34,293 nucleotides of DNA from Chrysochromulina tobinii (lineage: Eukaryota): positions 1 through 34,293 of the forward strand of contig JWZX01003121.1 in assembly GCA_001275005.1 (NCBI GenBank), read 5' to 3'. The position numbers and the translations under genes are program-made. How positions within the stretch are numbered: position 1 is the stretch's first letter; every line of letters starts with the position of its first letter. Shown here one piece after another: positions 7,515 to 34,096 of this stretch. Below the pieces are notes generated by a model, which saw only the letters and a list, made by a program, of their open reading frames with translations, searched no databases and was not told the origin of the DNA.

Positions 7515-10500
7515 CTATTTCTGCTTCGTCTGCAACTCGTGCATTGCACCTGGCATAGAGTTGTCCTTCGCCCACGTGAAAAACTCAATTGCTGAGATTC
7601 GCACATTCGTGGTTCGGGTTGCACCTTCTGATGGGGTCTCATCCGAACCCTCAATGCGGCGAAAGATTATCTGCAGTAAATGTTCAAGGCACCGATGGAT
7701 CGGCTGACGAGGCGGCGAGTTCCACTTTCCGGTGCGCTCGGTCTGGAACACTTCGAACATGGCTGGCTTCTCGCGTTTCAGATGGGCCACAAAAACCCCC
7801 GCGTCCGGGAGTTCCGCGTCACGGATCTCATCGTCTGTGGGCAGAGGTGCGATGGCTGCGAACCGGCAGAGGGCTTCGAGGAAGCCCTCGAATGGCAGAT
7901 GCTTTTCCTTGAGCCGGCCGCCGACGGTCTGCCCGTCGATGACGCACATGATCGACCAAAGGAAGCAGTATGCCGACACGCTCTTGCTCGGTCCAGAATT
8001 CTCGCCGATCAGGCCAAGGCTGCGCAAAAAGCCTCGCCAAACCTCAAAGCTGCAAAGCTTTCCAAGCTGGCCGCGTGTGTTGGTAAGCGCGTCCAGGCCG
8101 TCAAAAATGACGCGCAGCGACATCTCGTGCTTCGTGAGTACGTCATGCACCTCTTGTGTGTAGCAGTGACCGCGCCTGAACTCGTCTGGGGCACTCAAAG
8201 ACGGCTGGAGAGTCGGACTGACGTCAGACACGAGAAGCTGCTCTAGTGCCACACTCATGTTGGTTGTGACGCCACTCAGAAGATAGCGACTGAGTGCGAC
8301 ACGGACGATGGCGCACATAAACTCGATTCGGGTCAGGCCACTCTGCCGATTCTTTTCGTCCTTCTTCTCGATCGTCGTGGCGGTCTCGCTCTTCAACGCG
8401 TTCTCACTCGTGTGTTGCCGCGCTTCCCCCATGGCGACCGCCTCGGAGAAGATCAAGTCTATGTCAACCCTCTTGCAGTGCTCAGAGTCGTTCACGAAAA
8501 GCTTTGAATCATTGGCGAATCGGGTCCATCCATCTAGCGCAACCAAGTCGACATCGTCCTCTGAAGACAGCGCCGCTTTGCAATAGTAGCTAAACGCAAG
8601 GTTGATCAGCTGGTGATGAATCAACAGTATCGCACCAACCTCTTCATACTCTTCTGGAATGCCTTCGGAGTCGTGGTTCGTCGCGGCGTCGCCATCAAAA
8701 CGGAAGATCGTGCGCATGACGTTGTGGCGTAGCACCCGCCTCCATTCATTGGAGAATCGCTTGAACAGAACTTCCTCGTTGTCGTAAAAGTCCTTGGCGT
8801 CACACCACCTTTCACGCGGCGCCCAGATTGATTTGCGCAAGCTGAAGGGCGTAACTTGCACTTCGAAGAAGCCATAGGGTGGAGGTCGGCTCGGGATGGC
8901 ATACCAACGTCGAGCCAAGGTGAGTTTCTGCTGCTTCTGCGCAAGCATCGCGTTCGACGATGGTAGACCATATCCGCCTGGGCGGGCGCCGCTACGTCTC
9001 AGTTTCTCCCTCCGCACCAGGTCAGCCTCTTCGCCAGGTTGCGGCTCTAACCAGACACTCGTCAAGTGGTCGAGATATGCTCGCGTATCGTCGCTTTCAC
9101 GAGAGAGCTCGTGTGGCGAATATGACTCAATGTCCCGAAAATGCGCGACGCTGATCTCTGGCCTTGCAGGGAGATGTGGTGGCTGCTGCAAGGTGCGTCT
9201 CGACCGTTGTTTCGGACTCGCCGCCGATTCTGGAAAGGTCTGCCAAGCCCACGTCTTCTCCATCAAGAGTTGAGAGTGCGGAGCGGTAGAGTCTGCTGCC
9301 TTCACACCTGGCGCCGCCGCTTGTTGTAAGGGTCTTGATGGTGCAACCCGATGCGTCGGTGCCTGGTTGCGACCGCTACTCCCAGCGCCAGCCTTGATAC
9401 GCATCATCTCCGTCATGCGCAACTCTGTCAGCATGCCATCCAATGCATCTCGGGTGACCCTTTGTCGACTGCTATGCTTCTTGTACTCGAGTGGTATCTC
9501 AGGAACCTTTGCACGCTGAATGATCCCCGCGGTCGAGGCCGTCTGCTCGAGCGGAAACTGCAGGTGAAATGGCTCTTTGCGTGCGTACAGCTCAGGCACG
9601 GAGGCAGCATGTTCTTTAGGTGTATCGCGCTGGTTTTTCGCCGCTGCATTGGTGACATGCGGACGCCGTGCGTCGATCACGACATTCTCCTCCTCATCTT
9701 CATCATAGAGACCGTCAACATCGTAATCATGCCCGGGCTCGTCATCTGAAGGAAGAAACCAAAGCTTTGTCGCCAACGAACGGCCATGATTCACATTCTG
9801 AACAAGACGTCGAGACTGCGTCCGGCCATCCGCTATGATGCGCAATGCGAGGCTGCGCATCCTTTGGAGGTGGTTGGCGAAAGCAGCATGCCGCGCACGG
9901 TTCCAGCTGCTTTTAGCTGTGTTCTTAGCATCGGCCTCGACGTTCACTTCATCCAGAGCGTGCCCGGCGGCCAGGGTTCCGGTCACCAAGTAGTGATCTG
10001 CCTCTTGAGGGAGGCGTACAGGCGAGGATAGCTGCTGCAGGACAATGCTCTCTCCACGCATGCACCGGTTGCCGAGCGATGCAGCAGCGTTCAAGTTGTA
10101 CTGCAGATGAGTCAGCTTCATTACTACCAACTCGAGAACAACTTCATGGTCGTACGTCCAGCGATGTGAGCATCGTGTCAAGAGGGGCGTGCGCGAGAGA
10201 CTACGCACGAAAGCAAAGAAAATGGCCACCCACGTCGCGGAGGCCCCGAGCAACGCGCCTGGCCTCTGACGTGACACCTGCAGGAAAGCAGCGCGTGCTA
10301 TCTCTGTTGTTGCTATTCCCAGCTGAGAGCAGCATGACATGAAGCGCTCTAATGCGAGTGCATGCTCGCCAAGTTGCGTAGTGCCTGCAGCAACCGACGT
10401 CGCTTGAGCCTTTTCCCTGGCATTCCGACTGCCGATGTTGAAGATAGAGTGCGCCATGGCAGCGTGAACAATTGAAGTGGTGACCATCTCACCATAGTAG

Positions 10501-12038
10501 CGAATGATGTAGCCAAGCACGGGTCGGATCGCCTCAGGAGGTTTGGGCACTGAGAGCGGAGGCGCAATGTGCACGTGGAGCAGGTATGTTCGGGTGGTCA
10601 GATCCTCCGCTACAACAACAATTCGAATGACGGCGACGGCCTCTGGGTGGAAGTGCTTCATCAAAGCTTGCTCGTTCGCATCATTAGCAGCAGCCAGCGC
10701 CGCATACTGATTGCCAGAATCGCCACCCTCGCTCTCATCAGGCTTGGTATCCCCGCCTTTACCTCCCTTGCCCTTCTTCGGCGACTTGCCCCCCTTGTCC
10801 TCCTTCGGCGCTTTACCCCCCTTGTCCTTCTTTGGTGGTTTATTGGATCCAGCTTTTGCGTTATCCGGCTGGCCCGCATTCGCGTCGTTCACGGATGCCT
10901 CAGGTGAAGTACTATACAAGCTCAGGCGAGTGACAACCTCAAAGTGTAGCTCAGACTCAGCCGGTAGTAAGAAAGAGGCGAGGTACCCCAGATTTACCTT
11001 GCGCCTGGGACCATCACGAATCGCCGGGCGCAGGCCCATCGCCTTATAAAGTGCAGCAAAGTGTGCCGGCGTGCTGGCAGCGCGGCTGAGACCAAGCTCT
11101 AAAAGTGCAGTCTCAAAAACGGTCTGGTCCACCAGCACCGCGTCACCCTCAGCATCCGCCGAGCCGCCGATGCCTCGAGGGCTCTCAGGAGGGCTTCCTC
11201 GAGGGCTTGTTGAACCACTGGCTGACTGCGTTTCCAAGTACTTGCGGCAATATGCATCCAAATCGACGAAGCTTGCCCTCAAGAAGCTTAGTAGCACCGG
11301 GTTGACGGTGCTCATAGCTTGTCGGAGCCCAATCTCGTGTTCGCTCAGCACGATCGCTCGTGGATCCTGCGCCGTCGCCGCGTCGGGATCAGCGCTGCCA
11401 CTCTTCTCGCCGCCATCTTTCTTGCCCTTCTTGCCACCCTTACCCTTCTTGCTGTTGAGTTTTGCCTCGAGCGCTGAACTTTCTGCACTCGTCGCTAGCT
11501 GCTGCTTTGCACGTTGCCATCGCTCGATCGCAGCACGCCCAACCAAGGCCGCCTCCTGGAACTGGTTGTGCACGCTGATTGGCAGCGGTGGCATTTGCAG
11601 CTTGCCCTCGGCACTTACCGAGCGCTGCCTATAGCGTGTCCGCACGATCCATCCACGCACCACCGATTGGATGCGGATGAGTGCTGGTTTTGACGGCGTT
11701 GGCAGCGGACGACAAGCAGTAAGATGAAGGAGCTCGACCATCTTGCACAAGGACTGGGATGCACTCGCATTCCAGCGATAAATGCGCACGGTGGAGCGGC
11801 GACTTCTTGCCACCGCTCGCACGCTCACGCACTTGGAGCCAGGTGGCAGCGCGTAGCGGATGCGAGTGACAAGTGGAAATTCGGGTTGCACATGTTGCAC
11901 GAGTGGCTCAGCAGTTCCATCAGCGGCAATCACCGTGAGCGAAAGCAATGCGGGGTCCGACCAGCTCGGTGGAAGTGGATCGGGTCCACGGGGCGACTTT
12001 GAAGCACGACCACGAGAAGGTGACTTCGACTTTGGCAT
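7515..12038 (-). CDS. Large (~1450 aa) IQ-motif protein with EF-hand-like helical C-terminal region; probable intron 10101-10277
   Basis: Long ORF; likely start MPKSKSPSRG at 12038; IQ motif IRIQSVVRGWIVRTRY; Lys/Gly-rich linkers; C-terminal LTRIEFMCAIVRVA and LPFEGFLEALCRFA helices. Confidence 0.8.
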   Translation of the reverse strand: MPKSKSPSRGRASKSPRGPDPLPPSWSDPALLSLTVIAADGTAEPLVQHVQPEFPLVTRIRYALPPGSKCVSVRAVARSRRSTVRIYRWNASASQSLCKMVELLHLTACRPLPTPSKPALIRIQSVVRGWIVRTRYRQRSVSAEGKLQMPPLPISVHNQFQEAALVGRAAIERWQRAKQQLATSAESSALEAKLNSKKGKGGKKGKKDGGEKSGSADPDAATAQDPRAIVLSEHEIGLRQAMSTVNPVLLSFLRASFVDLDAYCRKYLETQSASGSTSPRGSPPESPRGIGGSADAEGDAVLVDQTVFETALLELGLSRAASTPAHFAALYKAMGLRPAIRDGPRRKVNLGYLASFLLPAESELHFEVVTRLSLYSTSPEASVNDANAGQPDNAKAGSNKPPKKDKGGKAPKEDKGGKSPKKGKGGKGGDTKPDESEGGDSGNQYAALAAANDANEQALMKHFHPEAVAVIRIVVVAEDLTTRTYLLHVHIAPPLSVPKPPEAIRPVLGYIIRYYGEMVTTSIVHAAMAHSIFNIGSRNAREKAQATSVAAGTTQLGEHALALERFMSCCSQLGIATTEIARAAFLQVSRQRPGALLGASATWVAIFFAFVRSLSRTPLLTRCSHRWTYDHEVVLELVVMKLTHLQYNLNAAASLGNRCMRGESIVLQQLSSPVRLPQEADHYLVTGTLAAGHALDEVNVEADAKNTAKSSWNRARHAAFANHLQRMRSLALRIIADGRTQSRRLVQNVNHGRSLATKLWFLPSDDEPGHDYDVDGLYDEDEEENVVIDARRPHVTNAAAKNQRDTPKEHAASVPELYARKEPFHLQFPLEQTASTAGIIQRAKVPEIPLEYKKHSSRQRVTRDALDGMLTELRMTEMMRIKAGAGSSGRNQAPTHRVAPSRPLQQAAAPGVKAADSTAPHSQLLMEKTWAWQTFPESAASPKQRSRRTLQQPPHLPARPEISVAHFRDIESYSPHELSRESDDTRAYLDHLTSVWLEPQPGEEADLVRREKLRRSGARPGGYGLPSSNAMLAQKQQKLTLARRWYAIPSRPPPYGFFEVQVTPFSLRKSIWAPRERWCDAKDFYDNEEVLFKRFSNEWRRVLRHNVMRTIFRFDGDAATNHDSEGIPEEYEEVGAILLIHHQLINLAFSYYCKAALSSEDDVDLVALDGWTRFANDSKLFVNDSEHCKRVDIDLIFSEAVAMGEARQHTSENALKSETATTIEKKDEKNRQSGLTRIEFMCAIVRVALSRYLLSGVTTNMSVALEQLLVSDVSPTLQPSLSAPDEFRRGHCYTQEVHDVLTKHEMSLRVIFDGLDALTNTRGQLGKLCSFEVWRGFLRSLGLIGENSGPSKSVSAYCFLWSIMCVIDGQTVGGRLKEKHLPFEGFLEALCRFAAIAPLPTDDEIRDAELPDAGVFVAHLKREKPAMFEVFQTERTGKWNSPPRQPIHRCLEHLLQIIFRRIEGSDETPSEGATRTTNVRISAIEFFTWAKDNSMPGAMHELQTKQK
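10101..10277 (-). other. Probable in-frame, stop-free intron (177 nt)
   Basis: Donor CAG|GTGTCA; branch/acceptor CTGACTCATCTGCAG|TAC; its translation is compositionally atypical. Confidence 0.6.
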
Positions 12039-12273
12039 GCCACGCCTGTCAGCTCCTGGGCGTGGAGAACGGACGACCACAACGTCGTCCGAGACCCAGC
12101 CAAGCAGGAGCGCCCCACACCTCGAACGCAACGAGGCGCCGGGCACGTTGCGGAAACGTAACGGAAAATGCGTGCAGTATCGCTTGGTGCTCTTATAAAC
12201 ACGGACGTTGATCCGAAGAGTCACCATCTTTGTGGAATGCAACACACTCATAAAGCGCCGTGCCGGGCTGCCC

Positions 12274-14697
12274 ATGGCGGCGGCGTCGCTCCTTCGCGAA
12301 GCGACAGCGAAGCGCACCTTCGACGCTCGCGAGGCGGTGCATTTCGACGACGCATGGCAAACATCAGCCTACGACCACCTTTGCTTTGCACGCAAGAAAT
12401 GGGTTCTCTCTGTGCAGCAGCGGAGCGGATTGCCCAGGCTCAAGGAGTTTGGATCAGCCGCGTTTCAGCGGTACCCACTCCGCGTGCAGCCCGTGGCCAA
12501 CCTCACAAGCGCCCTTGGCGAACAGTCCGCACGCTGTGAGTATGGAGGTACGACCTTCGTTGCAGACTTGCGGCACGGCGGCGGTGCAACCATGGGCATC
12601 GCTCACTTTGCCAAGCGATTGCTGAGGCTGCACGGCATTCTCCAGCAGCCGTCCGTCTACGGGCTGAAGAGCGTCGACCGCATCGCCTTTCCAGCCACGT
12701 CAGCCGTCCATCTTGCACACTCGTGGCCCTCATCAATGCTGAGGCTCGTGGCACCTCGGGCCGAAATTGTGCCTGTCGACGCACTGATAGCAAAGCCAGA
12801 TGGCTGCTGCTTCCATACCGTCGTCACCGCCGCTCGAGAGAACACGTACTTTGTCAGGCGGGCAGACTCGGACGCGCTTCGCAGCGCCGCTTTTGGCGCG
12901 GCGCAAGTGGCGCAGGCTCGTCCTGCGTGCGCGTCCTTGCGCGCTTGCTACTTCCAACGGTCCGAGGGCAGCACCGGAGGCCGATGGGAAGGAGGCGCTC
13001 GCGTCATCGTCAATCGGCAACTGGTGCTCGAGGCGATGTTGCGCATCCTGCGCTCGCGGGCTCCAGACGGGCGGGTGGAGCTCGTTAATGCCAACTCAAA
13101 TCACACCTTCTCGCAGCAGCTGAGCGTCTTCGCCTCGTGTGACCTGCTTGTCTCAGTCCACGGCTCACAGAATGCCAACATTATGTTCATGCGGCCTGGC
13201 AGCGCCTTCATGGAGCTCAACCCGTACAAGTTCTTCTACTCGTCCTACGAGGAGCTTGCCACTGTCAGCGGCGTGCTCTACCTGCGCTCGCGCGATAATT
13301 CGATCGCCACGGCTGACACGGTCACACACAGTGCCAAGAAACGCGAGGCGTTCGAATCCAAGCGTGCAGCTTTCCTACGCGAATTCCGATCCTGGTCAGA
13401 CGAACGGTGCCAGCAGCACTCGCGCTGTCGCTCGCTCTCGCGCAATTTTCCCACGCTGATCAACCTGACGGACCTGGAGATACATTTTAGGCACGGCGTC
13501 GATCACGTCGTGCGCTCCTTCCCGCGACCACCCAGCTGCCCTCCGATGGAACCCACCATCGCACCCATGCCCATCGCTGCCGATCAGACCCCCGTGCCGC
13601 CGCCCGCTGGCCGGCCGGGCTGGCGACGCTTATTCTCAGGTGGCAAGGGTGGTGGCAAGGTCGGTGGCAAGGTCGGTGGCAAGGGTGGCGGCAAGAGCGG
13701 CGGCGGAGGCAGGATGGGTGGCAGCCGTTACAACACTGGCCCGGCCGACGGTAGCGGTAGCGGCGGGCTTCGCATCGCCGTTTGCGTGGGCGGCCAACTC
13801 TCCCGCCTTGAGATCGACTCAAAGGTCGAGAATGTGCTCAAGCCGACGGCGGCGACGCAGCCGGACGCTCTGGACCTTTTTTTGGCGCTCGAGGTGGGAG
13901 GGCATCTCTTCTCGAACTTGGACTTCGGCGCGATCCTCGCGCAGCAGGGCAGCAGTTGCGGCAAGGAGATCTCGCCAGACGAGGTGCGGCGGCGCTTCGC
14001 GCCCTTTGTCGCGGGCACAAGCTTCTCCAACCACACCACCCGCAGCATCGATCTTGCCGATTGGAAGCGTTACCGCAAGGACCGCCCGGCGGCGGAGCGC
14101 ATGACGCGCCTGCAGCACCACCTCTCGCAGTTTGCGCACATGCGCACGTGTGCTCAAATGATCGAGCAGCGCGAGATCGCCACGCACTCGCACTACGATG
14201 TGATCCTCAAACTCCGAGACAACACGGTCGCGGTCGCTCCCTTCGTCATCAGTCCGCATCACGCAACCGGCGGTGCGCGCACCAAGAAATGCGTCGAATG
14301 GGGAGGATACAATGACAAGGCCATGGTGTTGCCACGGCGATTCGCCGACAGCGCGTTGCGAGGGCCCTCTGAGGACTTTTTCCTCATCAAGGACCTTGGA
14401 CGCGGGATCACCAACTCGGAGCGTCTCCTGCGGGCGGTCCTCGACCGTCGCGGTGTGCGCGTGCAGCGCGTGTCGGCGGAGGACTTGCCACTTGTGGATG
14501 GCCGTTGCACCCCCCAAGGGTGGTGCCTCGTCGAGGAGGGCAAGGACTGCCGACCGGCGACGTGGCCATGGCCGGCGAGGCCTTGCGAGGAGCACAACAT
14601 GACGGCCACGCAGAAGGAGCTTTATCTACAGCGCTTCAGGCCTCGCAGTGAGATTGCGCCGCACATGGTCGCGGGCGTTTCCATGAATAACGCTTGA
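12274..14697 (+). CDS. Glycosyltransferase family 61 (DUF563-like) domain fused to a second putative glycan-modifying domain
   Basis: GT61 signature TFSQQLSVFASCDLLVSVHGSQNANIMFMRPGSAFMELNP; second domain LRIAVCVGGQLSRLE...YDVILKLRDN...GGYNDK...NSERLL. Start uncertain (in-frame stop at 12196). Confidence 0.8.
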   Translation: MAAASLLREATAKRTFDAREAVHFDDAWQTSAYDHLCFARKKWVLSVQQRSGLPRLKEFGSAAFQRYPLRVQPVANLTSALGEQSARCEYGGTTFVADLRHGGGATMGIAHFAKRLLRLHGILQQPSVYGLKSVDRIAFPATSAVHLAHSWPSSMLRLVAPRAEIVPVDALIAKPDGCCFHTVVTAARENTYFVRRADSDALRSAAFGAAQVAQARPACASLRACYFQRSEGSTGGRWEGGARVIVNRQLVLEAMLRILRSRAPDGRVELVNANSNHTFSQQLSVFASCDLLVSVHGSQNANIMFMRPGSAFMELNPYKFFYSSYEELATVSGVLYLRSRDNSIATADTVTHSAKKREAFESKRAAFLREFRSWSDERCQQHSRCRSLSRNFPTLINLTDLEIHFRHGVDHVVRSFPRPPSCPPMEPTIAPMPIAADQTPVPPPAGRPGWRRLFSGGKGGGKVGGKVGGKGGGKSGGGGRMGGSRYNTGPADGSGSGGLRIAVCVGGQLSRLEIDSKVENVLKPTAATQPDALDLFLALEVGGHLFSNLDFGAILAQQGSSCGKEISPDEVRRRFAPFVAGTSFSNHTTRSIDLADWKRYRKDRPAAERMTRLQHHLSQFAHMRTCAQMIEQREIATHSHYDVILKLRDNTVAVAPFVISPHHATGGARTKKCVEWGGYNDKAMVLPRRFADSALRGPSEDFFLIKDLGRGITNSERLLRAVLDRRGVRVQRVSAEDLPLVDGRCTPQGWCLVEEGKDCRPATWPWPARPCEEHNMTATQKELYLQRFRPRSEIAPHMVAGVSMNNA

Positions 14698-14865: not shown

Positions 14866-15769
14866 GGTCGAACGAGTTTGAAGCCCCAGGCCCCCAGCTG
14901 AAGTTGTACATTGAGCTCGCGTCCTTTCGTTACTTCCCCGGCCCACGGCCATTAACACGGCCACGCCCACCGCCGGCATGCCACCGCGCCGGACACGCAA
15001 TCGAATTTAGCGTGTCGGTGCGGGCGACACGACCGACGACGGCGAGAGAGGCGACGACCGCAAACCGCCTCAGGGAACCGCCTAACCGCGGCGCCAAGAG
15101 GCAAGAGCGAGAAGGCCGATTTCTACAGTTACGATGTGATGCGTGAATTTCGGTCTGTCGGGTATCCAATACCGTGAGGATCGGTCGGGAATCAAATGCC
15201 ATGTATGTCCCTAAAGCAAAAGATCCTATTGACAGCTGCTAGCTAGTATGTGACCAAATTCCAGAGCGTCGGCGTTGTCACTCGATAAAAAAGGAAAATC
15301 CAATCGTTTACGGGGTACTCTGAGCTGCGCACTTTCCGGGCTCGCACGTCATTCGTGGGCGCACTCGCAGGCATTTTGCATGCGCTGCTGCTCCGTCCGC
15401 CTGCTTTTCGTCGCCATGCTCGCCACCCAGCACACCGACTTCGAATCCTTCGCCAATGCGCTCGGTGGCCTTCCGAATCAGCCGCCCGTTCCGATGGAGT
15501 GCGAGCCGTCGCCGAGTCCCATCGATGTGGACACCAAAGCCATCGTGCAGCAAGTGGTCGATGTGCTGCTGAAGCACAGCCCTTCGCCCTCGGTGTATCT
15601 CGTGTTGTGGTGAGGTGAAGGAGGTTTGTTGGAACCCAACATGTCCTGACATGTCTGTTTCTAGAGATTAAAAATGTCTAAAGTAAAACGAGAAGTTCGG
15701 GACAAACGAGATTGCGGGGAAGAGAAAAAAGAGGAGAATCGAGATTGCGTTGCTATCAGTCCTCGCGAC

Positions 15770-18097
15770 ATGGCGGCGCCCTTGGCGATGACGGCGCATC
15801 TCCAAGAGCCCAGTTCGTCGCAGCAGGGCTTCGGCCGCCAGGGCTATGGCTCACATCAGCAGCTCGCCAGCCCGCAGGCCGCGCACGCGCAGGTGGTGCA
15901 GGCGGTGCAGACAGGCCAGGCCGGCCATCCAGCGATGCTTCAAGTGCAGTTGACACAGGCGCCTTTCGTTGCTCTGCCAGGCGCGCAGCTGACACAGGCG
16001 CCCTACTGGCCGGTGGATATGGTCGCATACCCGTCGAGCCCGACCTTGCTCGAGCGCATCATCCACCAAGTGCACTACTACTTCTCAGCAGAGAATCTTT
16101 GTCGCGATGAGTTCCTACGAGGCCACATGGATCAGCACGAAGGCTGGCTACACATACAGTTGATCGCCTCCTTCAATCGGCTGCGCAGCCTCACGATGGA
16201 TGTCAATCTCGTCGCTGAGGCGCTGCGCCTTTCGCCGGAGCTCGAGGTGTGCAATGGCATGGTGCGCAAGCGACATGACTGGCAGCGCTGGCTGGTGCCA
16301 CAAGCGCAGCTCGGCGGGCCAACCTCGCCGACGCCGTCGTCGCCTGACAGCAGGTCGGATCCAACATCTCCGCTTGTTCGCACGGGCTCGACCGGATTCT
16401 CGCGCGTCACTGAGGCGCCGTCGTTGGACTCGACAGCGAACGTGATCCATGGGCAAACGGAGACCATGCAGCCGTCGCGCTCATCGCCGGCCTCGCCCAA
16501 CACGGCGCCATCGCACCAGCACGCGCAGGCCGGTGCCAAGCCTACGCACCAGCAGCCGCTGTTGCCGCCGTCGCTGCATCAGCAGCCGCAGCCGCGGCAG
16601 CCGCAACCGCAGCAGCTCAAGCAAAAGCAGCAGCAAAAGCAGCTGCAGCAGCAGCAAAAGCAGCAGTGGCCACGAGCGATGCTTGCTGTGGAAACGCCGA
16701 GCGTGGCTGCCGGCGGCGAGGCAGCCGGTGAGGCGCCCGTGCGGGGTCGAGATGCGGCAACGTCCAAGCAGCAGTCGAGGTTGGAGCCAAGGTCGGCCTC
16801 CTCTCGGAAAGCAAGCGCACCGTATGCGCAGCCGTCGTACGAGACGCGCAGCGCAGGCTCCGCGCAGGGCAGCAAGCTGCCATCGTACGGAGCGACAGCC
16901 GCAGCACACGGGCTGCCATCGAACGCTGCGTCGCGCGGGGGGCTCGAGGCGGCGGCAGCAGCAGGAGCAGCAACGTCCAGGCAGCGACAGGTACCACCTG
17001 CGGGCAGCTCCGGAACCGCTTCGGGTCAGTCTACGAGGCCGTCGACGGCAGAGGGCAACAGCGCAGGCAGCAGCGCAGGTAAACGTGCCGCGGCCGCGGC
17101 GCCGAGCGATCTGGATGAGGCAGAGGAGCTCGCGCTGCTGCAGGAGTGGCAGCTGCTCGGGAACGGCTCTTCCCTTGCCGACTGGCGTGCGGCGCACGAC
17201 TTGTGGGTCGAGGCGCAGCTCGGGGGCGCTTTGAGGGCTGCGGCGGCGCGTGAGCAAGAGGAGCCGTGGGAGACGGCGCCATCGAACCGTCGGAGCGCGC
17301 GCAAGGGCGGCCCTGGCGATCGAAAGGACTCCGGCAACGAGAGCGAGATCGGAATGGAGATCGGAGTGAGCGCGCTGCATCTGAAAGACGCGCCGCCGCT
17401 TTCGGACCGCTCTTCCAAGGGAGAGGTGCGTGGGAGCAACCAGAGCAAATGGGACGAAGGGCACTCGGACCAGACGACCCTCCTCAATGATGAGGACTGG
17501 TCGTCTTTGTCCGCAGGCTCCGCAGAGGACCCACGACCGAGCTCGCCCGATGCGCACACGGACGGCACCCCTACATCCGGGTCTGTTTTGTCTCCGGGAC
17601 GTGAGAAGCTCGGTGTGAAGCGATCTCCGTGCAAGACCAAGCCGGCGGACAAGGCCGGTGCTCCCCCGTGCAAGCCGCACGTGCTGCGCGAGCTGCGCGA
17701 CGCGCCGCTGCTCGAGTCGCGCGGCTCGGCGGCCTCGATGCTCGCAGCGATTGACCTCGACCTTATCGTGTCAGTCACGAGCGCTGCGGCCGCAGTCGCC
17801 TCGCGCTGTGCGGGCGCGCTATACGAGCGATTGCTCACGCACACGCCGCGCACGCGCGCCCTCGTGCTCAAGCACGGCGCCGAGCGGCACGCCCAGATGG
17901 CGCTCGTGCTCGTGGCGCTTCTCTTCCTCCTGCTGCTACCCACGAGCCGGCTGCCGCCTTCGTTGGGTGAGCTCGTCGCTCCACGCTGGCTCGAGCTGCC
18001 GATCGGGCTGATTCTGGGGCTCAAGGTGAACGACCTGGGCAATAAGCTCTGGACGATGTGCACACCATGCCCCACGCAGCATGGGCGCGCCGGATGA
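15770..18097 (+). CDS. La-motif (LARP-type) RNA-binding protein with Gln-rich region and C-terminal hydrophobic helices
   Basis: IIHQVHYYFSAENLCRDEFLRGHM...GWLHIQLIASFNRLRSLT...ALRLSPELEV...VRKR is a La motif; likely start MAAPLAM. Confidence 0.88.
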   Translation: MAAPLAMTAHLQEPSSSQQGFGRQGYGSHQQLASPQAAHAQVVQAVQTGQAGHPAMLQVQLTQAPFVALPGAQLTQAPYWPVDMVAYPSSPTLLERIIHQVHYYFSAENLCRDEFLRGHMDQHEGWLHIQLIASFNRLRSLTMDVNLVAEALRLSPELEVCNGMVRKRHDWQRWLVPQAQLGGPTSPTPSSPDSRSDPTSPLVRTGSTGFSRVTEAPSLDSTANVIHGQTETMQPSRSSPASPNTAPSHQHAQAGAKPTHQQPLLPPSLHQQPQPRQPQPQQLKQKQQQKQLQQQQKQQWPRAMLAVETPSVAAGGEAAGEAPVRGRDAATSKQQSRLEPRSASSRKASAPYAQPSYETRSAGSAQGSKLPSYGATAAAHGLPSNAASRGGLEAAAAAGAATSRQRQVPPAGSSGTASGQSTRPSTAEGNSAGSSAGKRAAAAAPSDLDEAEELALLQEWQLLGNGSSLADWRAAHDLWVEAQLGGALRAAAAREQEEPWETAPSNRRSARKGGPGDRKDSGNESEIGMEIGVSALHLKDAPPLSDRSSKGEVRGSNQSKWDEGHSDQTTLLNDEDWSSLSAGSAEDPRPSSPDAHTDGTPTSGSVLSPGREKLGVKRSPCKTKPADKAGAPPCKPHVLRELRDAPLLESRGSAASMLAAIDLDLIVSVTSAAAAVASRCAGALYERLLTHTPRTRALVLKHGAERHAQMALVLVALLFLLLLPTSRLPPSLGELVAPRWLELPIGLILGLKVNDLGNKLWTMCTPCPTQHGRAG

Positions 18098-26875: not shown

Positions 26876-29085
26876 ATGCGGCGAGGAAGCAAGAGCAAGG
26901 TCGCAGCGACCGGTAAGAATGGCAAATCTTCGCGTGCCACGCCGACGCCGTCTTCGGGCAACGGCGTCAAACGCAGCCGGCAGGCCGCACTCGATGAAGA
27001 GCTCGACAGTGGAGACAGCGGCGATGAGGAGGCTGCACAGCACGCAGCAATGCTTGCTGGCGAGGCGGAGGACGACGAGGAGCTGAAAGAGTCCGCTGAG
27101 GAACGTCGCGTACGGCTCGCCAAGGAGATGATCGCTGCCATGGACGCTGCCGCCGCAAGGCGCCGCGAGGGCGCCGCCGACGTAAGCGGTGTGGCACGTG
27201 GCGCTCATGCCGACGAGATCGCGCAGGAGCTCGAGGAGGACGCGATGCGTCGTGCGGGCCAATATCGCTTCTTGGCGGCCGAGCAGCTCCGGGGCGTCCA
27301 ACTGGACCCGAGTGCATCGCGCGTCTTCCGTGGTCCTCGGCTCAGTGCCACGAGCGTCGCGGTGGCACCCGATGAGAGCTTCGTCGTGTGTGGTTGCAAG
27401 GACGGCGCGCTCGTCCGATGGGACTTGCAGTCTGGCGCGCGAACCAAGCTGCTGGGCGGTCGCGCCACTGCCCTGCATGGTGCCAGAGCCGGCGGCGGCG
27501 GTGAACATGGCGACGGCGCTGGCACGTCGAAAGGGAACAGCGATCAGACCGGCCATCTGTCGGACGTACTCTCAGTGGTAGTGAGTGCCGACAGCCGGCT
27601 GATTGCCTCTGGTGGTCGCGATGGCGCCATCCTGCTGTGGGACTGCCGCACGTCGCGCGTGGTGCACCAGATGCGAGGGCATAAGATGCCGGTGAGCGCC
27701 CTGTCCCGGCGGCGGGACGCGGATGGTCCCGAGCTATACTCGGGCTGCGATGACCGGACGGTGCGCGTGTGGGACGTTGAGCAGCGTGGCTACGTCGAGA
27801 CGCTCTACGGCCACCAGGAGCCCATCTGCGCCCTCGACGCGTTGTGCGAGCACCATCTGCTCTCGGGCAGCGCCGACCGCACGGTCCGTCTGTGGAAGGT
27901 CGATGAGGAGACACAGCTCGTCTTCACCCATGGGCACACGGCACCCGTCGATTGCGTCGCTATGTTGCATGCTGACGCCTTTGTCAGCGGCTCGCAGGTG
28001 CGCACCTTCACACGTCCATTCACACGTCCATCCACACGTCCATTCACACGCACACGCGCCGCCGGCTCGCACGCTCGCGCAGCCATGGCCCACCTGCCCA
28101 CGCCCGCCGCGTCCATTCACACGCGTCCATTCACGCACTCCCTGCGCTCGCCATCGCCCGCGTCACCTGCACGCGCTCCCTGCGCACGCCAACTTAGCCG
28201 CCGCCACCTACGCCACGCCCCATTCGGCCGGACGCGCCTATAGCGCCTTTAAAGAAAGGCAGTTGCTGCTGACCTGGGCTGGCTGGGCTACCTGGGCTAC
28301 CTGGGCGCACGTGCGGCGAGCGGCGCCTCCAGTGACGAGCCCACATCACAACCTCTAAGAAGTCCCGACCCGAGGTAGCACTCGTGGCTTGACGAGCCTA
28401 GTTACACGAGGAGAGCGCGCGCCGCACACGGCGCCACGGCCACTGCCGCCGCCATGGCCACTGCCGCCGCCACGGCCACTGCCGCCGCCACGAGGCGGGC
28501 CTGCCTCCGAACCCTCCCTCCGACTCCTCACCCGCTGCGCCCTCAGCCCATGTCCTGACGCTGGTCGTGCCGTTCCGTGCTCAGGACGGCTCGCTCACGT
28601 TCTGGTCGGCGAAGCGCAAGCGACCGCTCGTCACACAGAAGCTCGCGCACGGCCTCGCGCCGTGGGGTGGTCCATGTTGGCTCACCGCGCTCGCGGCGCC
28701 GGCGTACTCGGACGTGGTCGTCTCGGGCTCGTGCGATGGCCATCTGCGCTTCTGGCACTGCGACGAAACCGAGCGTAAGCTCACGCCGCTGCTCTCGACG
28801 CCCCTGACCGGCTTCGTCAACGGCCTTGCGCTCGCGCCGAGCGGCAAGTTCGTTGCTGCCGCTGTCGGCCAGGAGCATCGGCTGGGCCGCTGGTTCAAGA
28901 TCAGCGAAGCGCGTAACTCGGTCGTGATCGTGCCGTTGCCCGCGCCGCTGCACATCAAGCCGCGCCTTGGGTCACGGCTGCAGGGCGGGAGCCGCAGGCG
29001 GCCGGGCGCCCTGGATGGGGACGAGGAGGAGGACGTACGAGAGGACGACGAGGACGACGAGGACGACGAGGCCGAGGACGACTGA
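26876..29085 (+). CDS. RRP9: U3 snoRNP-associated WD40 protein RRP9/U3-55K; exons 26876-27997 and 28585-29085
   Basis: ESAEERRVRLAKE, WD40 repeats, YVETLYGHQ, FVSGSQ|DGSLTFWS joined by the intron, AVGQEHRLGRW...RNSV C-terminal signature. Confidence 0.92.
28007..28050. repeat. 12-bp tandem repeat ttcacacgtcca (~3.7 copies), intronic
   Basis: Read directly; further degenerate copies near 28110-28136. Confidence 0.9.
28433..28492. repeat. 18-bp tandem repeat gccacggccactgccgcc (~3.3 copies), intronic
   Basis: Read directly. Confidence 0.9.
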
Positions 29086-29829: not shown

Positions 29830-31612
29830 TTATTCCAGCTCCTCCGGTGGCACTGGTTTGGCTCGGCCGGCGTTGCCCCCAGCGGGAATGCGCTTACATG
29901 GAGGCAGCGAGTCGATGGGCGGTGGCTCATACTCCCAATATGGACCATCTGGAAGGTGCTCACGGTATGCTTCTGCGTACTCCTTCTCGACACTCGCGTG
30001 CAGGCGCCCAAAGTGATCATGCACGATGGGCGGTGCGTGGGTGCGGCAGGTCTCGAGCGCGGCGCCTGTGAGTCGTCGGCCCTCGGCGAGCCGAGCGAGC
30101 TGATGGCCGTACTCGTTCACGCGCTCGAAGACCGCGTCCGCATTTATCCGGTGCGTCTTGGCCGCATGCTGCTGAGCCAGCCCACCGAGCAGAAGCCGAT
30201 TGGCCTCAATGACCGCGAGCCATTCGGAGCTGAAGCTGCGAAACGGACGCTTGTTGGTGCGCCGGATCTGCTCAGACACCTCCTCGAACATGGACGCGCA
30301 CTCGGCCGCAAGTTTCTCGAGCATCTCTGGCTGCGCCGAGTTTTCCTCGCGTATCTTGAGATACAGGGCCTTTTGGGCCTGCGCGAGCATCAGGCCGCTC
30401 AGGATGCTGACCGTATCGCCGCTCAGGTCCTCGCAGCCGTGCCACGGGCCTTCCTGCTGGCTGACCTCGGCGAGCTTGTCCAGCGTGAACGCCGCCTGTT
30501 GATAAAGTTTGAACGCGTCCTTATGTGGCTTCCCGTTGGCCAGGTCGGCGAGCGAGGCGGCTAGGTTGAAGAGTGCGCATGCGAGCTCGTAACCCCACGA
30601 CGAGGTGGGCGGCTGCTCGTGGCCGGTGAACGCATCCGTCCATGCGAGCCGAGGCAAGTCCGAGGATGCCCTTCGCAAGCCACACGCCGCATCCGCCGCC
30701 GCTGCAAGGGTGTAATAGCGACCGCACAAGTTGCGACGATCGACCACGCCAGCGCCTTCTGTGGGGGCAGCCACGAAGTCATCCGCAATCTTCCTCAGAC
30801 TCTCGCGAAGGGCATCGCACTCCTTGGCTTTGGTAAGGGCCTCGGCTTCGTTCGCGGGCTGGCCGGCAGGGCTGCCGAAGGGCATCGAGCCGAAAGGCGA
30901 GCCGAATGAGGCCCGGCTCGGACGGCCGCCGACTGCCGGGGCGGGCGAGGTACCGGCGGTAGCAGCCGAACGCGAGGTACCGGCGTCCGCCGAACGAATG
31001 AGAGGTGCAAGGCACAAGCGGCTCCGAGGTACCTTGAGGCTGAAGCTGAGCATTCCGTGCGAGGACACGTACCAACGGGCGTTTGCGCGCCAGCGGGTGG
31101 CCCGCCAGCGCCACCGAGCGAGCTGCGCCCCGAACAAAGCGACAATGGTGATCGCCACGTAAGGCGCCAGCGCTAGGACGAAATCGCACATGAAGGCGTA
31201 CATCGCGTGCGTATTCGGGCTGACTCCCCAGAGCAGCACAGCGCACATGACAGCAAGGACGGCGCGTGCCTGTTCTTGGGAGGACCGCCAGCGCCACTGA
31301 GCGAGCTGCAAAGCGGCAACTGTGCCCGCGACGTAAGGCGTAAACGCGAGAACGCGACTGCGCACGAAGGCGTACATCGCGTGCGTAGTCGGGCTGACTC
31401 CCCAGAGCAGCACAGCGCACATGACAGCAAGGACGGCGCGTACGGCGCGTGCCTGCTCTTGGGAGAGCTGCGTCGCGGGGACGGCGGGTGCGGCCCTTGA
31501 CGCGGATGCGGTGGCAACAGGCGCTGAGAAACCGCTGTCTGGCCGCCCGCGCGCGGGCGAATGCGCGGGTCGGCTGAGCGGCGGAGCCGGAGGAGCCGCA
31601 GCCGCAGCCGGG
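29830..31612 (-). CDS. Transmembrane block + BRO1 domain (3' part of probable LEM-like-TM-BRO1 gene)
   Basis: BRO1 features: CDALRES, RYY, LAWTDAF, SWGYELACALFNLAA, AFKLYQQAA, LMLAQAQ, EYGHQLARL, terminal AKPVP; no V domain follows. Confidence 0.85.
31102..31465. repeat. Intragenic tandem duplication, period 174 bp, encoding hydrophobic segments
   Basis: gctgactccccagagcagcacagcgcacatgacagcaaggacggcgcgt is identical at 31219 and 31393. Confidence 0.92.
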
Positions 31613-32437
31613 CTAGCTCGCGCTGGAAAAGGTAACCTCGGAATCATATCTCTGTGGAGCTGCTGGGGCGGCCGATGGTCGCCACGCATACCATGGTCCG
31701 GCAGCAGGAGGAATGGGCGCCGGTGGCTGCGCACGTGGCTGTGATGATGACTGAAGCACAGAGGCCGCGGCGGCACTAGCAAATGCAGCAGGTGGGTGTT
31801 GTTGGCTCAGCGGCACATTTTGGTTCGGCGCGGGGGGGGCTGGCCAGGATGAGCGCCCTGAGGCTGCCGAAGCCGCAGGTGGACCCGTTGCTGGACCCGT
31901 CGAACGCCTTGCTGGACTCGTCGCAGATCGCCGTGCGCCGCTTGTGTGTGTGTGCCACAGTACCTCATAGTCATACTTCGTCAACTTCCCCGTAGGCAAG
32001 CGAATGCCGAGGCGCGTCAACTCACGTTTGTACTCCGCGATCGTGCTTGGCGGGATGAGTGCCAGGCGCCGAGCATTCAGTTCATCCAGATCTCCGTGGA
32101 GTCTTTGATCGCTGAAGGACCGCAGCCCGGCACCGCCGGCGGCCACCACATCAGGCTGCTTGATCAGGCTCGCCCAGCGACCGTCGAGCTCAACAAGATG
32201 TTTCACTTCGATCGTGGGTCGTGCCGGGCCCGGAATTTGCTTTGCAAGGACCTCGGCAAGATTGCGCCCCGCTTGAGGCGGAGCAAAGAGCACGCCATCT
32301 CGGAGGCAGAGCAGATCGCTGACGAGTTTGATGAACTCATCGAAGTCAAACATGCCATCTCCGTTATCGTCGTACAGCGTCACCACGGACACGACATTTA
32401 GTTCCACCTCGTACGCAGACCTGCGCCAAGGAGGCAT
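31613..32437 (-). CDS. EF-hand + LEM-like/HeH domain + Pro/Ser/Ala linker (5' part of the same probable gene)
   Basis: EF loop DDNGDGMFDFDE; TIAEYKRELTRLGIRLPTGKLTKYDYEVLWHTH fits the LEM-like/HeH pattern; first in-frame ATG at 32437, though an upstream exon is possible. Confidence 0.7.
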   Translation of the reverse strand: MPPWRRSAYEVELNVVSVVTLYDDNGDGMFDFDEFIKLVSDLLCLRDGVLFAPPQAGRNLAEVLAKQIPGPARPTIEVKHLVELDGRWASLIKQPDVVAAGGAGLRSFSDQRLHGDLDELNARRLALIPPSTIAEYKRELTRLGIRLPTGKLTKYDYEVLWHTHTSGARRSATSPARRSTGPATGPPAASAASGRSSWPAPPAPNQNVPLSQQHPPAAFASAAAASVLQSSSQPRAQPPAPIPPAAGPWYAWRPSAAPAAPQRYDSEVTFSSAS

Positions 32438-32946: not shown

Positions 32947-34096
32947 TCATACGAGTATCCGGCCGGCGCATGACGAGGCGGTGCGCGCCAGCCCAGCCAC
33001 CGTTGGTGTTGGATTGCGATTGGCCGTAGCTTCATATCGCTCGGGTGCCCAAATAAGGCCGACTCCAGTCCCTTGAGAAAGCTGCGCTCGATCATCTACG
33101 GACATCAAACGCGCCCACGGACGCATGGGTGCCCGCGGCAAGCCACGCAAGGCAATGACTGGCGACTCACCATTGATGGAGAAGACCAGGGTACCCGCAT
33201 CGTGATCCACGCCCACCTCTACGTCAACGACTCCTTTTGAGCCGCCGGCAGGCTCGCTGACGCTGTACATTTGATGTGTCGCCCAGCCAAAACTTGCGGG
33301 TTGTGGGCCTGACTGTGCCCCATTGCGGACCTTGCCATCACTGTCACGGGTCCACCGAAGCAAGCGGCCGGACTGCATGTGCAAGCCCCAGCCCACACGC
33401 GAATCCGCGTCGCACACGCCAATACAAGCACGTCCAGCTCGTCCATCGCGCTGCTCGACACGCAGAACAAAGGAGCACTTTCCCGACGGCGGAAGTAGAG
33501 AGCCTGCCGCCCATGCATCCAGCCCAGACTCACGCACGAGCAGGTCACCATGGGTGACACGGTGGCGCTGTGTAAGAGATGAATCCCAAGCCAAGTGGAT
33601 TAGCTGACGTGGTAAACGACGGCGCGACGTGGATGGCTGAGGCGATTCGCCAGGCGCTTGACGGAGCACCCTCCGCATGCGACGTCCAATCAACCCCGGA
33701 AGCTCGCGGATGGGCGGCAAACGATGTGCAGATTTGCGCGCCTGGAGTAATACTTGGTCGCGGATTTCTCGCAAAGGTCGTGCCCAACGCCTTCGCGCGG
33801 AGGCGGATGGGCTGCGCGAGCGCGTGGCCGCACTGGACGAGCCGGGTGCGATAGAGGCGCCGCGCGTGGATGCCGCACTACCGGAAGACGACCTGGACTG
33901 ATGGCGCAAAAAGCGAGGCATGAGGCGAATCGATGACGAATTGCGCCGTGACGGGCGCTTTCTGGAACGAACAACCAAGCACATACATAAATTCAGTCAG
34001 TGCTCTCGTGACCGAGCAGTACGCGCCGGCTACGGGGGCGGAGGGCGGGCGGGCAGCCACGAGCGCGCTTCGACTTGTCCGTTGTCCCAGCTCCAT
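32947..34096 (-). CDS. Protein with a SPRY/B30.2-like beta-sandwich domain; possible intron 33962-34022
   Basis: SGKCSFVLRVE...CIGVCD...WGL...VEVGVDHDAGTLVFSING...MRPWARL resembles SPRY; GC|GTACTG donor and CTGAC...TTCCAG acceptor join ATG 34096 in phase 2; alternative start 33921. Confidence 0.6.

What the first reader, a model, noticed from the sequence alone, without database searches (positions are those of the whole stretch)
29830..32437. Candidate LEM-like/HeH - transmembrane - BRO1 fusion: a nuclear-envelope protein with its own ESCRT-III adaptor
Seen: EF-hand, then a 34-aa segment (~31945-32050; STIAEYKRELTRLGIRLPTGKLTKYDYEVLWHTH), a long Pro/Ser/Ala linker, about four hydrophobic segments, and a C-terminal BRO1 domain with no V domain. 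The 34-aa segment aligns without gaps to the LAP2 LEM-like domain as I recall it (T, K.EL, LP.G, K..Y..L, H). Established: LEM2/MAN1/Heh1 have N-terminal LEM/HeH + linker + TMs + a C-terminal winged helix that engages CHMP7/Chm7 in nuclear envelope sealing, and BRO1 domains bind CHMP4/Snf7. Inference: BRO1 takes the place of the winged helix, allowing direct ESCRT-III recruitment from the membrane; an even TM count would put both domains on the same side. I know of no described protein with this architecture.
Basis: partly seen in the sequence, partly recalled or inferred. Interest (0 to 1): 0.88.

Follow-up and report, generated by a model that had tools for sequence, protein, structure and literature searches.

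The report
Membrane-anchored LEM-like–BRO1 fusion in alga
A freshwater alga (Chrysochromulina) has one gene that joins a small predicted DNA-binding domain of the type found in nuclear-membrane proteins, a hydrophobic likely membrane anchor and a BRO1 domain, a combination that would let one protein call the cell's membrane-sealing machinery straight to the nuclear envelope.

Summary
The fusion is real. The window splits it into two frames by one extra base at 31634-31635. A lake contig 99.9% identical to the window lacks that base, and 18 metagenome proteins of 837-950 aa carry all parts in one frame, so no intron is needed.

BRO1 is certain (Pfam E 3e-32) and has no V domain. The 33-residue segment is predicted as a helix-extension-helix whose structural neighbours are SAP/LEM/HeH domains; LAP2 has the highest identity (27%) but Z is only about 4. 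By eye it matches a protist LEM-like domain without gaps (11/33). Pfam and phmmer miss it.

Corrections:
- The EF-hand begins a ~115-aa module shuffled onto PARP, otubain and ubiquitin-like proteins.
- The four hydrophobic segments come from a recent duplication of one unit.
- Half the variants carry a UIM-like motif that is absent here.
- There is no MSC domain, so this is not a LEM2/MAN1 family member.

I found it only in close Chrysochromulina-like sequences. Snf7 binding, topology, expression and nuclear-envelope location are untested.

The parts
29830..32437 (-). Single coding region (868 aa in the closest intact relative P0003), split in this assembly by one extra base; the 5' end may extend to an upstream exon (untested)
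32057..32425 (-). Unnamed ~115-aa module starting with an EF-hand-like loop (32336-32371); found elsewhere with OTU/otubain, PARP+UBA and ubiquitin-like domains
   Evidence: Pfam EF-hand_1 E 0.0025, below cut-off
31946..32044 (-). LEM-like/HeH helix-extension-helix segment (residues 132-164)
   Evidence: AlphaFold2 single-sequence model, pLDDT 77.5; structural neighbours SAP/LEM/HeH; by-eye gapless match to a protist LEM-like domain; no Pfam or phmmer hit
31465..31945 (-). Low-complexity linker (P0003: 160 aa, 27% Ala, 21% Pro, 14% Ser, 13 Arg, no Lys); 9 of 18 relatives carry a UIM-like motif near its middle, absent here
31634..31635 (-). One extra base relative to all four related loci; breaks the frame in this assembly (sequencing error or private allele)
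31282..31464 (-). Hydrophobic unit 1 (derived tandem copy; its second helix is interrupted by two Arg)
31108..31281 (-). Hydrophobic unit 2, likely a two-helix hairpin
31072..31119 (-). Arg/Trp-rich basic stretch right after the hydrophobic block, pointing to a cytosolic or nucleoplasmic C-terminus (positive-inside rule)
   Evidence: 5-6 Lys/Arg against 0-1 acidic residues in the next 25 residues in 18 of 18
29833..30852 (-). Divergent BRO1 domain without V domain or CAAX tail (Pfam match 29959-30651, profile 86-316 of 385)
   Evidence: Pfam E 2.8e-32; ALIX E 8e-9; ALIX 4.5e-12 and HD-PTP 3.5e-5 with the profile

Best explanation
This is a single Chrysochromulina gene encoding a BRO1 domain joined to a hydrophobic block and a predicted LEM-like (HeH) domain, and the product is likely an integral protein of the nuclear envelope or ER that would bind DNA with the HeH domain and recruit Snf7/CHMP4 (ESCRT-III) directly with BRO1. 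Shown: the one-frame architecture, the BRO1 identity, and frame-preserving variation among relatives. Predicted: the HeH fold, a hairpin topology with both ends on the cytosolic or nucleoplasmic side, and a retained CHMP4-binding patch. Inferred: DNA binding, location, and a role in sealing or quality control of the nuclear membrane, possibly gated by Ca2+ (EF-hand-like module) and ubiquitin (UIM-like motif in other alleles). It would work like LEM2-CHMP7 and farnesylated BROX combined, but it is a lineage-specific assembly and not a LEM2 family member.
For: One frame: 19 of 63 family proteins read hold all four parts, several on contigs of 14-32 kb. L001 is 99.9% identical to the window and open throughout. 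Frame kept: against L002, 8 of 11 indel runs in the CDS are multiples of three, two adjacent runs sum to 15, and the last is the window's own extra base; in the 3' flank 3 of 12 are multiples of three. pN is below pS in BRO1 (0.010 vs 0.024), linker and HeH (1 non-synonymous vs 3 synonymous), on few changes. HeH: 9 of 50 structural rows name SAP, LEM or LAP2; LAP2 entries have 27% identity, the highest in the list (1gjj Z 4.1, rmsd 2.8, 48 aligned). 11 of 33 identities without a gap to the N-terminal LEM-like region of the Naegleria MSC protein, 13 of 33 for the P0005 type, and 10 of 23 to Perkinsus (by eye; about 1e-6 per register). Patch: ALIX F199 -> L in 18/18, L216 -> L/F, K202 and K151 kept in 18/18. 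Topology: both flanks are basic in 18/18, and one-unit and two-unit alleles coexist with intact BRO1, which is simplest if each unit has an even number of passes (inference). Precedent: membrane-anchored V-less BROX acts at nuclear envelope ruptures (PMC8657813).
Against: No Pfam LEM, HeH, Thymopoietin or SAP hit in 18 of 18 proteins and no PDB sequence hit for the segment. Structural Z-scores are 3-5, the top row is a lysyl-tRNA synthetase insertion, and Foldseek gives no E below 1. HeH folds occur in many non-nuclear proteins. The by-eye matches were the best-looking of 28 table rows. There is no MSC domain. The HeH is not N-terminal. The ALIX I212 position is Thr in 8 of 18 and D143 is not kept. 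Only 86-100% identical relatives were found. The N-terminal module and the hydrophobic block also occur in other architectures. No clear NLS. No transcript or read data were obtained.
Confidence: 0.42

Rival explanations
1. A young, shuffled chimera from Chrysochromulina's fast-changing modular gene pool. It is kept open but its parts do not act as one nuclear-envelope device, and any role is lineage-specific and unsettled.
For: The N-terminal module is 76-83% identical in unrelated architectures: PARP+UBA (C. tobinii/parva cluster), otubain+ubiquitin-like, ubiquitin-like, and a TIR-like one (TIR recalled, no Pfam hit). A second C. parva model, P0008, has the hydrophobic block and part of BRO1 behind a different N-terminus. 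Alleles are mosaics with gain/loss of the UIM-like motif, duplicated blocks and three versions of the BRO1 C-terminal stretch; 48 of 83 hydrophobic-block columns vary. No relative outside the near-identical group.
Against: The same domain order is kept across 18 distinct sequences down to 85% identity; indels preserve frame and pN is below pS in BRO1, linker and HeH. The word-based searches cannot see orthologues at about 30% identity. The HeH-linker-membrane order matches known LEM-like proteins.
Confidence: 0.28
2. A membrane-anchored ubiquitin-cargo adaptor acting at endosomes, lysosomes or ER. The UIM-like motif captures ubiquitinated cargo and BRO1 recruits ESCRT-III, as in the ESCRT-0/Bro1 route; the HeH has a protein-binding or vestigial role.
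For: UIM-like motif in 9 of 18 full-length relatives (Pfam UIM_2 E 0.063, below cut-off). The N-terminal module travels with OTU, otubain, UBA and ubiquitin-like domains. The Atlas lists a mostly haptophyte BRO1+UBA cluster, score 0.83, a lead only.
Against: The motif is missing in 9 of 18, including the window's lineage, while the HeH is kept in 18 of 18 with its core columns invariant.
Confidence: 0.2
3. In the window's strain the gene is a true frameshifted allele giving a soluble N-terminal piece and no or separate BRO1 product; the fusion works only in other lineages.
For: The extra base is in the window. The C. parva model P0007, nearly identical to the window where they overlap, skips the linker that holds this site. 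The protein on record for the window's own contig is the 351-aa BRO1 part only, P0013.
Against: Both single-base gaps between window and L001 are extra bases in the window, the CDS one lengthening a run, as assembly errors do. L001 is otherwise 99.9% identical and open.
Confidence: 0.1

Closest known systems
LEM2/MAN1/Heh1-Src1 (MSC-domain proteins) with CHMP7/Chm7
   Same: LEM-like/HeH segment, long unstructured linker, likely two-pass membrane anchor with both ends on one side, and a C-terminal domain tied to ESCRT-III (PMC5630835, PMC6461442, bioRxiv 10.1101/049148; passages).
   Different: No MSC domain: no Cys-rich lumenal region between the helices and no winged helix. The C-terminal domain is BRO1, which binds Snf7/CHMP4 by another interface. 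An extra N-terminal module precedes the HeH.
BROX (human)
   Same: V-less Bro1 protein with a membrane anchor; BROX binds ESCRT-III and acts in nuclear envelope rupture repair (PMC8657813, passages).
   Different: BROX is anchored by C-terminal farnesylation and has no LEM-like or transmembrane part; this protein ends without a CAAX motif and has an internal hydrophobic block.
ALIX / yeast Bro1 / HD-PTP
   Same: BRO1 domain with best solved-structure matches to ALIX, then HD-PTP; CHMP4-patch positions mostly hydrophobic or basic as in ALIX.
   Different: No V domain or proline-rich tail. The six-residue ALIX insertion around F105 is absent, as in the fungal Bro1 P0009. These are soluble proteins recruited by partners (recalled).
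LAP2 LEM-like domain (PDB 1gjj, 1h9e)
   Same: Predicted helix-extension-helix fold; 27% identity in structural alignment.
   Different: Not detected by sequence search; the rest of LAP2 is unrelated.

Membership tests
LEM2/MAN1/Src1 (MSC family) | MSC domain: two membrane helices around a Cys-rich lumenal region, then a winged helix | tested here: not met
   No MSC Pfam hit in 18 of 18; the hydrophobic unit spans 46-55 aa with no lumenal domain; the C-terminal domain is BRO1
LEM2/MAN1/Src1 (MSC family) | N-terminal LEM or LEM-like domain | tested here: inconclusive
   LEM-like segment likely, but it starts at residue 132 behind another module; fold and by-eye support, no profile hit
LEM2/MAN1/Src1 (MSC family) | Inner nuclear membrane location | not testable with these tools
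   needs localisation
SAP/LEM/HeH fold | Two parallel helices joined by an extended loop | tested here: met
   Predicted model only: helices 16-25 and 37-48, pLDDT 81-89 over residues 11-50; neighbours are SAP, LEM, LAP2, endonuclease VII, Rho, Ku70 at Z 3.3-5.2
LEM-like (Thymopoietin/HeH) subfamily | Sequence profile match | tested here: inconclusive
   No Pfam or phmmer hit at E <= 10, though HMMER filters drop weak matches; by-eye 11/33 gapless to Naegleria D2V886 and 10/23 to Perkinsus C5KFV5; 27% to LAP2 by structure
LEM-like (Thymopoietin/HeH) subfamily | Direct DNA binding | not testable with these tools
   property stated in PMC5630835
Bro1-domain proteins | BRO1 domain above the Pfam cut-off | tested here: met
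   112.5 bits against cut-off 35.1; 18 of 18 relatives
Bro1-domain proteins | CHMP4/Snf7-binding patch | tested here: inconclusive
   Sequence only: F199->L 18/18; I212->T 8, M 5, L 5; L216->L 13, F 5; K202 and K151 18/18; K147 13/18; D143 0/18. F199 and I212 from PMC4772496; the other positions are recalled. Binding not modelled.
ALIX/Bro1/HD-PTP subfamily | V domain after BRO1 | tested here: not met
   The protein ends 42 residues after the Pfam match; no ALIX_LYPXL_bnd hit
BROX | C-terminal farnesylation (CAAX) site | tested here: not met
   18 of 18 end in EELE with no Cys in the last four residues
UIM | Leu-x-x-Ala-x-x-x-Ser helix with acidic flanks | tested here: inconclusive
   Motif in 9 of 18 relatives, absent in the window; Pfam UIM_2 13.9 bits against cut-off 21
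EF-hand | 12-residue loop with D1, N3, D5, G6, E12 | tested here: inconclusive
   Loop residues are present; Pfam 17.7 bits against cut-off 25.4; the module profile hits EF-hand proteins only over this loop; Ca2+ binding untested

The most novel reading that the evidence does not exclude
Haptophytes, or at least Chrysochromulina, seal and police their nuclear envelope with a self-contained LEM-like-transmembrane-BRO1 protein that senses DNA and calls Snf7 directly, replacing the LEM2 winged-helix/CHMP7 step used from yeast to humans. It would be an independently evolved nuclear ESCRT adaptor and an integral-membrane Bro1 protein.
Probability: 0.22. Interest if true: 0.87.

Novelty: new variant of a known kind. 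Interest (0 to 1): 0.63.

Why it matters
In studied organisms ESCRT-III reaches the nuclear envelope through LEM2/Heh1 and CHMP7/Chm7, with the soluble or lipid-anchored Bro1 proteins in separate roles. A natural fusion of a LEM-like domain, a membrane anchor and BRO1 suggests a second route and is a ready test: does tethering BRO1 to chromatin at the inner membrane bypass CHMP7? It could be tried in yeast heh1/chm7 mutants. Practically, the gene is recorded in pieces (351-aa BRO1 only for this contig), so the architecture is invisible in current annotation. If it is only a young chimera, it still documents active shuffling of ubiquitin- and ESCRT-linked modules in Chrysochromulina.

Tried and rejected
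Intron joining the two frames: 335 GT/GC-AG pairs could restore the frame, but the open frame in L001-L004 makes an intron unnecessary; rejected.

Pfam on the segment alone and on 18 full proteins: no LEM, HeH, Thymopoietin, SAP, MSC or UIM hit. phmmer of the segment against PDB: nothing relevant and nothing. Atlas on residues 100-175: no usable hit. Word search with the segment: only its own family, 3 of 22 candidates. Word search with the hydrophobic block: only the family and P0008.

The 175-residue N-terminal model was poor (pLDDT 52); its ferredoxin-like matches and Foldseek rows were ignored.

Idea that BRO1's first strand and helix start right after the hydrophobic block: no BLASTP alignment to fungal Bro1 and gapless scores no better than shuffles, 866 of 2000; not supported.

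Viral origin: 35 candidate stretches, none confirmed. No whole genome is held, so CHMP7, Snf7 and a canonical LEM2 could not be sought. No sequencing runs were obtained, so expression, splicing and the extra base are unchecked by reads. Earlier findings: three look-ups returned nothing.

Literature: no paper describing this architecture in searches (listings only). In one search none of the 25 listed (of 27) held both Bro1 and LEM-like or HeH domain. The library lacks most subscription papers.
Full report
ORGANISM AND SETTING. The window is eukaryotic, GC 0.56-0.69. A Chrysochromulina parva gene model (P0007) is 100% identical over the BRO1 query, so the source is a Chrysochromulina. Neighbours are ordinary: a WD40 gene (U3-55K/RRP9-like by my recall) on the plus strand ending at 29085 and a SPRY-like ORF at 33996-32947 on the minus strand. 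No whole genome is held.

ONE GENE. In the window the parts lie in two frames: 32437-31613 (EF-like module, HeH segment, half the linker) and 31806-29830 (rest of the linker, hydrophobic block, BRO1). A search with the BRO1 part returned 9 proteins among 7995 candidates. Seven are 86-100% identical over most of it, one is a partial C. parva model and one a fungal Bro1 at 31%. Cluster look-up gave 63 family proteins (two clusters were listed only in part, 15 of 28 and 15 of 16). Nineteen hold all four parts; the rest are shorter calls that begin at or after the hydrophobic block, or fragments. Eighteen full-length ORFs of 837-950 aa align end to end at 85-100% identity, some on contigs of 14-32 kb. 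Four metagenome loci were fetched. L001 matches the window at 99.94% and 99.89% over 8017 and 2621 columns, and has a stop-free frame of 979 codons covering every part. All four lack one base that the window has at 31634-31635. So the coding region needs no intron, and the window's break is an assembly error or a private allele; I have no reads to decide. The C. parva model skips the same linker, which keeps the second option alive.

SELECTION. Against L002 (L003 shows the same set, so they are not independent) 8 of 11 indel runs in the CDS are multiples of three, two adjacent runs sum to 15 and the remaining one is the window's extra base. In the 3' flank 3 of 12 are multiples of three. pN/pS against L001: BRO1 0.010/0.024; linker 0.009-0.011/0.022-0.036; HeH 1 non-synonymous vs 3 synonymous changes; EF module 0.011/0.011; hydrophobic block 0.25/0.36 on an uncertain alignment. 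Counts are small; the frame evidence is the stronger.

N-TERMINAL MODULE. A full HMMER search with residues 1-175 gave 61 hits among 1.84 billion proteins. Apart from generic EF-hand proteins they define a ~115-aa module that ends at about residue 125, just before the HeH. Close copies (76-83%) sit in other architectures: two copies + PARP + UBA (cluster with C. tobinii and C. parva members), otubain + module + ubiquitin-like, module + ubiquitin-like, and module + TIR-like (TIR by recall; Pfam silent). Distant copies (30-43%) often precede an OTU protease (24 of the 61 were fetched). The module is therefore mobile and keeps company with the ubiquitin system.

HeH SEGMENT. Pfam and phmmer do not detect it, and it was found only in this family. 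Folded alone from a single sequence it gives two helices joined by an 11-residue extension, mean pLDDT 77.5. Against 48,161 chains the best Z is 5.2 (lysyl-tRNA synthetase insertion, rmsd 2.7, 48 aligned). Nine of 50 rows name SAP, LEM or LAP2, and others (endonuclease VII, Rho, Ku70, PIAS1, CDNF) are the same fold by my recall. LAP2's LEM-like domain appears twice (1gjj Z 4.1, rmsd 2.8, 48 aligned; 1h9e Z 3.6, rmsd 2.6, 45 aligned), each at 27% identity, against at most 22% for other rows. Foldseek's top rows include the same fold but none has E below 1. Such Z values alone show only a common arrangement. PMC5630835 (passages) states that fungal and protist MSC proteins carry an N-terminal LEM-like domain that binds DNA directly. 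In its supplement (parts 25-26 of 38 read, 28 MSC rows) the N-terminus of the Naegleria protein aligns by eye without gaps to the segment: 11 of 33 identical, 13 of 33 for the P0005 type; Perkinsus gives 10 of 23. The chance per register is about 1e-6, roughly 0.02 over all positions of those rows, and I picked the best-looking rows. I put HeH fold at about 0.85 and LEM-like type at about 0.7. No haptophyte row is among the 28; the later Haptophyta row (part 27, not read) looks BAF-like by recall. Figure 4 of that paper, which holds the distribution, was not visible.

LINKER AND UIM. The linker is low-complexity and variable in length (a 61-residue duplication in P0014/P0015). Nine of 18 full-length relatives carry a UIM-like motif at the point where the window's lineage has a deletion and the extra base; Pfam UIM_2 scores E 0.063, below cut-off.

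HYDROPHOBIC BLOCK. Thirteen of 18 relatives have one 55-residue unit; five, like the window, have two units of 46 and 49 residues from a tandem duplication. Both flanks are basic in 18 of 18. Two passes per unit is the simplest reading: a unit with an odd number would flip BRO1 across the membrane on duplication, yet both forms keep an intact BRO1. This is inference; 55 residues could also hold three short helices, and no topology predictor was available. The unit has no Cys-rich lumenal region like that of the MSC proteins in the table, so it is not an MSC remnant.

BRO1. Pfam E 2.8e-32 over profile positions 86-316; ALIX, then HD-PTP, among solved structures; HHalign 96% to fungal Bro1; Atlas neighbours are mostly V-less BRO1 clusters. 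No V domain, no CAAX. Mapping ALIX numbering: F199 is Leu in 18/18, I212 is Thr/Met/Leu (8/5/5), L216 is Leu/Phe (13/5), K202 and K151 are invariant, K147 is kept in 13/18, D143 is lost. F199D and I212D abolish CHMP4 binding in ALIX (PMC4772496, passages); the other positions are recalled. The patch looks retained but degenerate, and the C-terminal stretch occurs in three quite different versions.

HOW IT LIKELY WORKS. A hairpin anchor would hold HeH and BRO1 on the same side of the nuclear envelope/ER. The HeH would bind DNA and enrich the protein where membrane meets chromatin, and BRO1 would bind Snf7's tail and seed ESCRT-III there. In yeast, Heh1/Heh2 engage Snf7 and Chm7 (bioRxiv 10.1101/049148, passages; PMC6461442, passages). 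In human cells farnesylated BROX works at envelope ruptures and promotes Nesprin-2G ubiquitination (PMC8657813, passages; PMC7618577, passages). That LEM2's winged helix activates CHMP7 is recalled; the paper was not held. I give this reading 0.42, a young chimera without a unified role 0.28, a ubiquitin-cargo adaptor on other membranes 0.20, and a dead allele in this strain 0.10.

NOVELTY. Seven searches (listings only) showed no description of a LEM-like-transmembrane-BRO1 protein or of haptophyte Bro1 proteins. The architecture appears undescribed, built from known parts. It works like LEM2-CHMP7/BROX if the inferences hold, but fails the membership tests for the MSC family, the ALIX subfamily and BROX. 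Its known range is a group of close Chrysochromulina-like sequences; the searches used would miss distant orthologues. Interest 0.63.

Noticed in passing
window 32057-32425 (-); P0066-P0072, P0076, P0079, P0083, P0085, P0094, P0103: An unnamed ~115-aa module with an EF-hand-like start and a conserved DLLCLRD motif; often precedes OTU deubiquitinases and is shuffled at about 80% identity onto PARP+UBA, otubain, ubiquitin-like and TIR-like proteins. No Pfam family covers it; worth its own study.
   Followed up: partly
P0008 (C. parva model): Second model with the hydrophobic block and a piece of BRO1 behind a HET-like N-terminus (HET recalled, no Pfam hit). It also contains a stretch that equals the antisense reading of the window's BRO1 region, suggesting a rearranged copy or a model error.
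   Followed up: partly
window 32947-33996 (-): SPRY-like ORF (Pfam E 0.001, below cut-off) about 500 nt upstream on the same strand, intact in L001 and L004; the C. parva model splices part of it onto this gene.
   Followed up: partly
window 15665-18097 (+): La-domain protein (Pfam E 2e-23) with a long low-complexity middle and hydrophobic segments near the C-terminus, an unusual-looking membrane-anchored LARP.
   Followed up: no
ESM Atlas, rank 30: A mostly haptophyte cluster of 58 proteins combining V-less BRO1 with UBA; a possible relative of this BRO1 (score 0.83, lead only).
   Followed up: no
window 28155: Second single-base difference from L001, inside the probable intron of the WD40 gene; again an extra base in the window.
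   Followed up: no
window 1294-26706: Other ORFs: SRP signal-peptide-binding domain alone (1294-2175), DEAD-box helicase with GUCT, double FHA protein, 1617-aa ORF with no Pfam hit (7515-12368), glycosyltransferase 61, alpha/beta hydrolase, ankyrin, histidine phosphatase.
   Followed up: no
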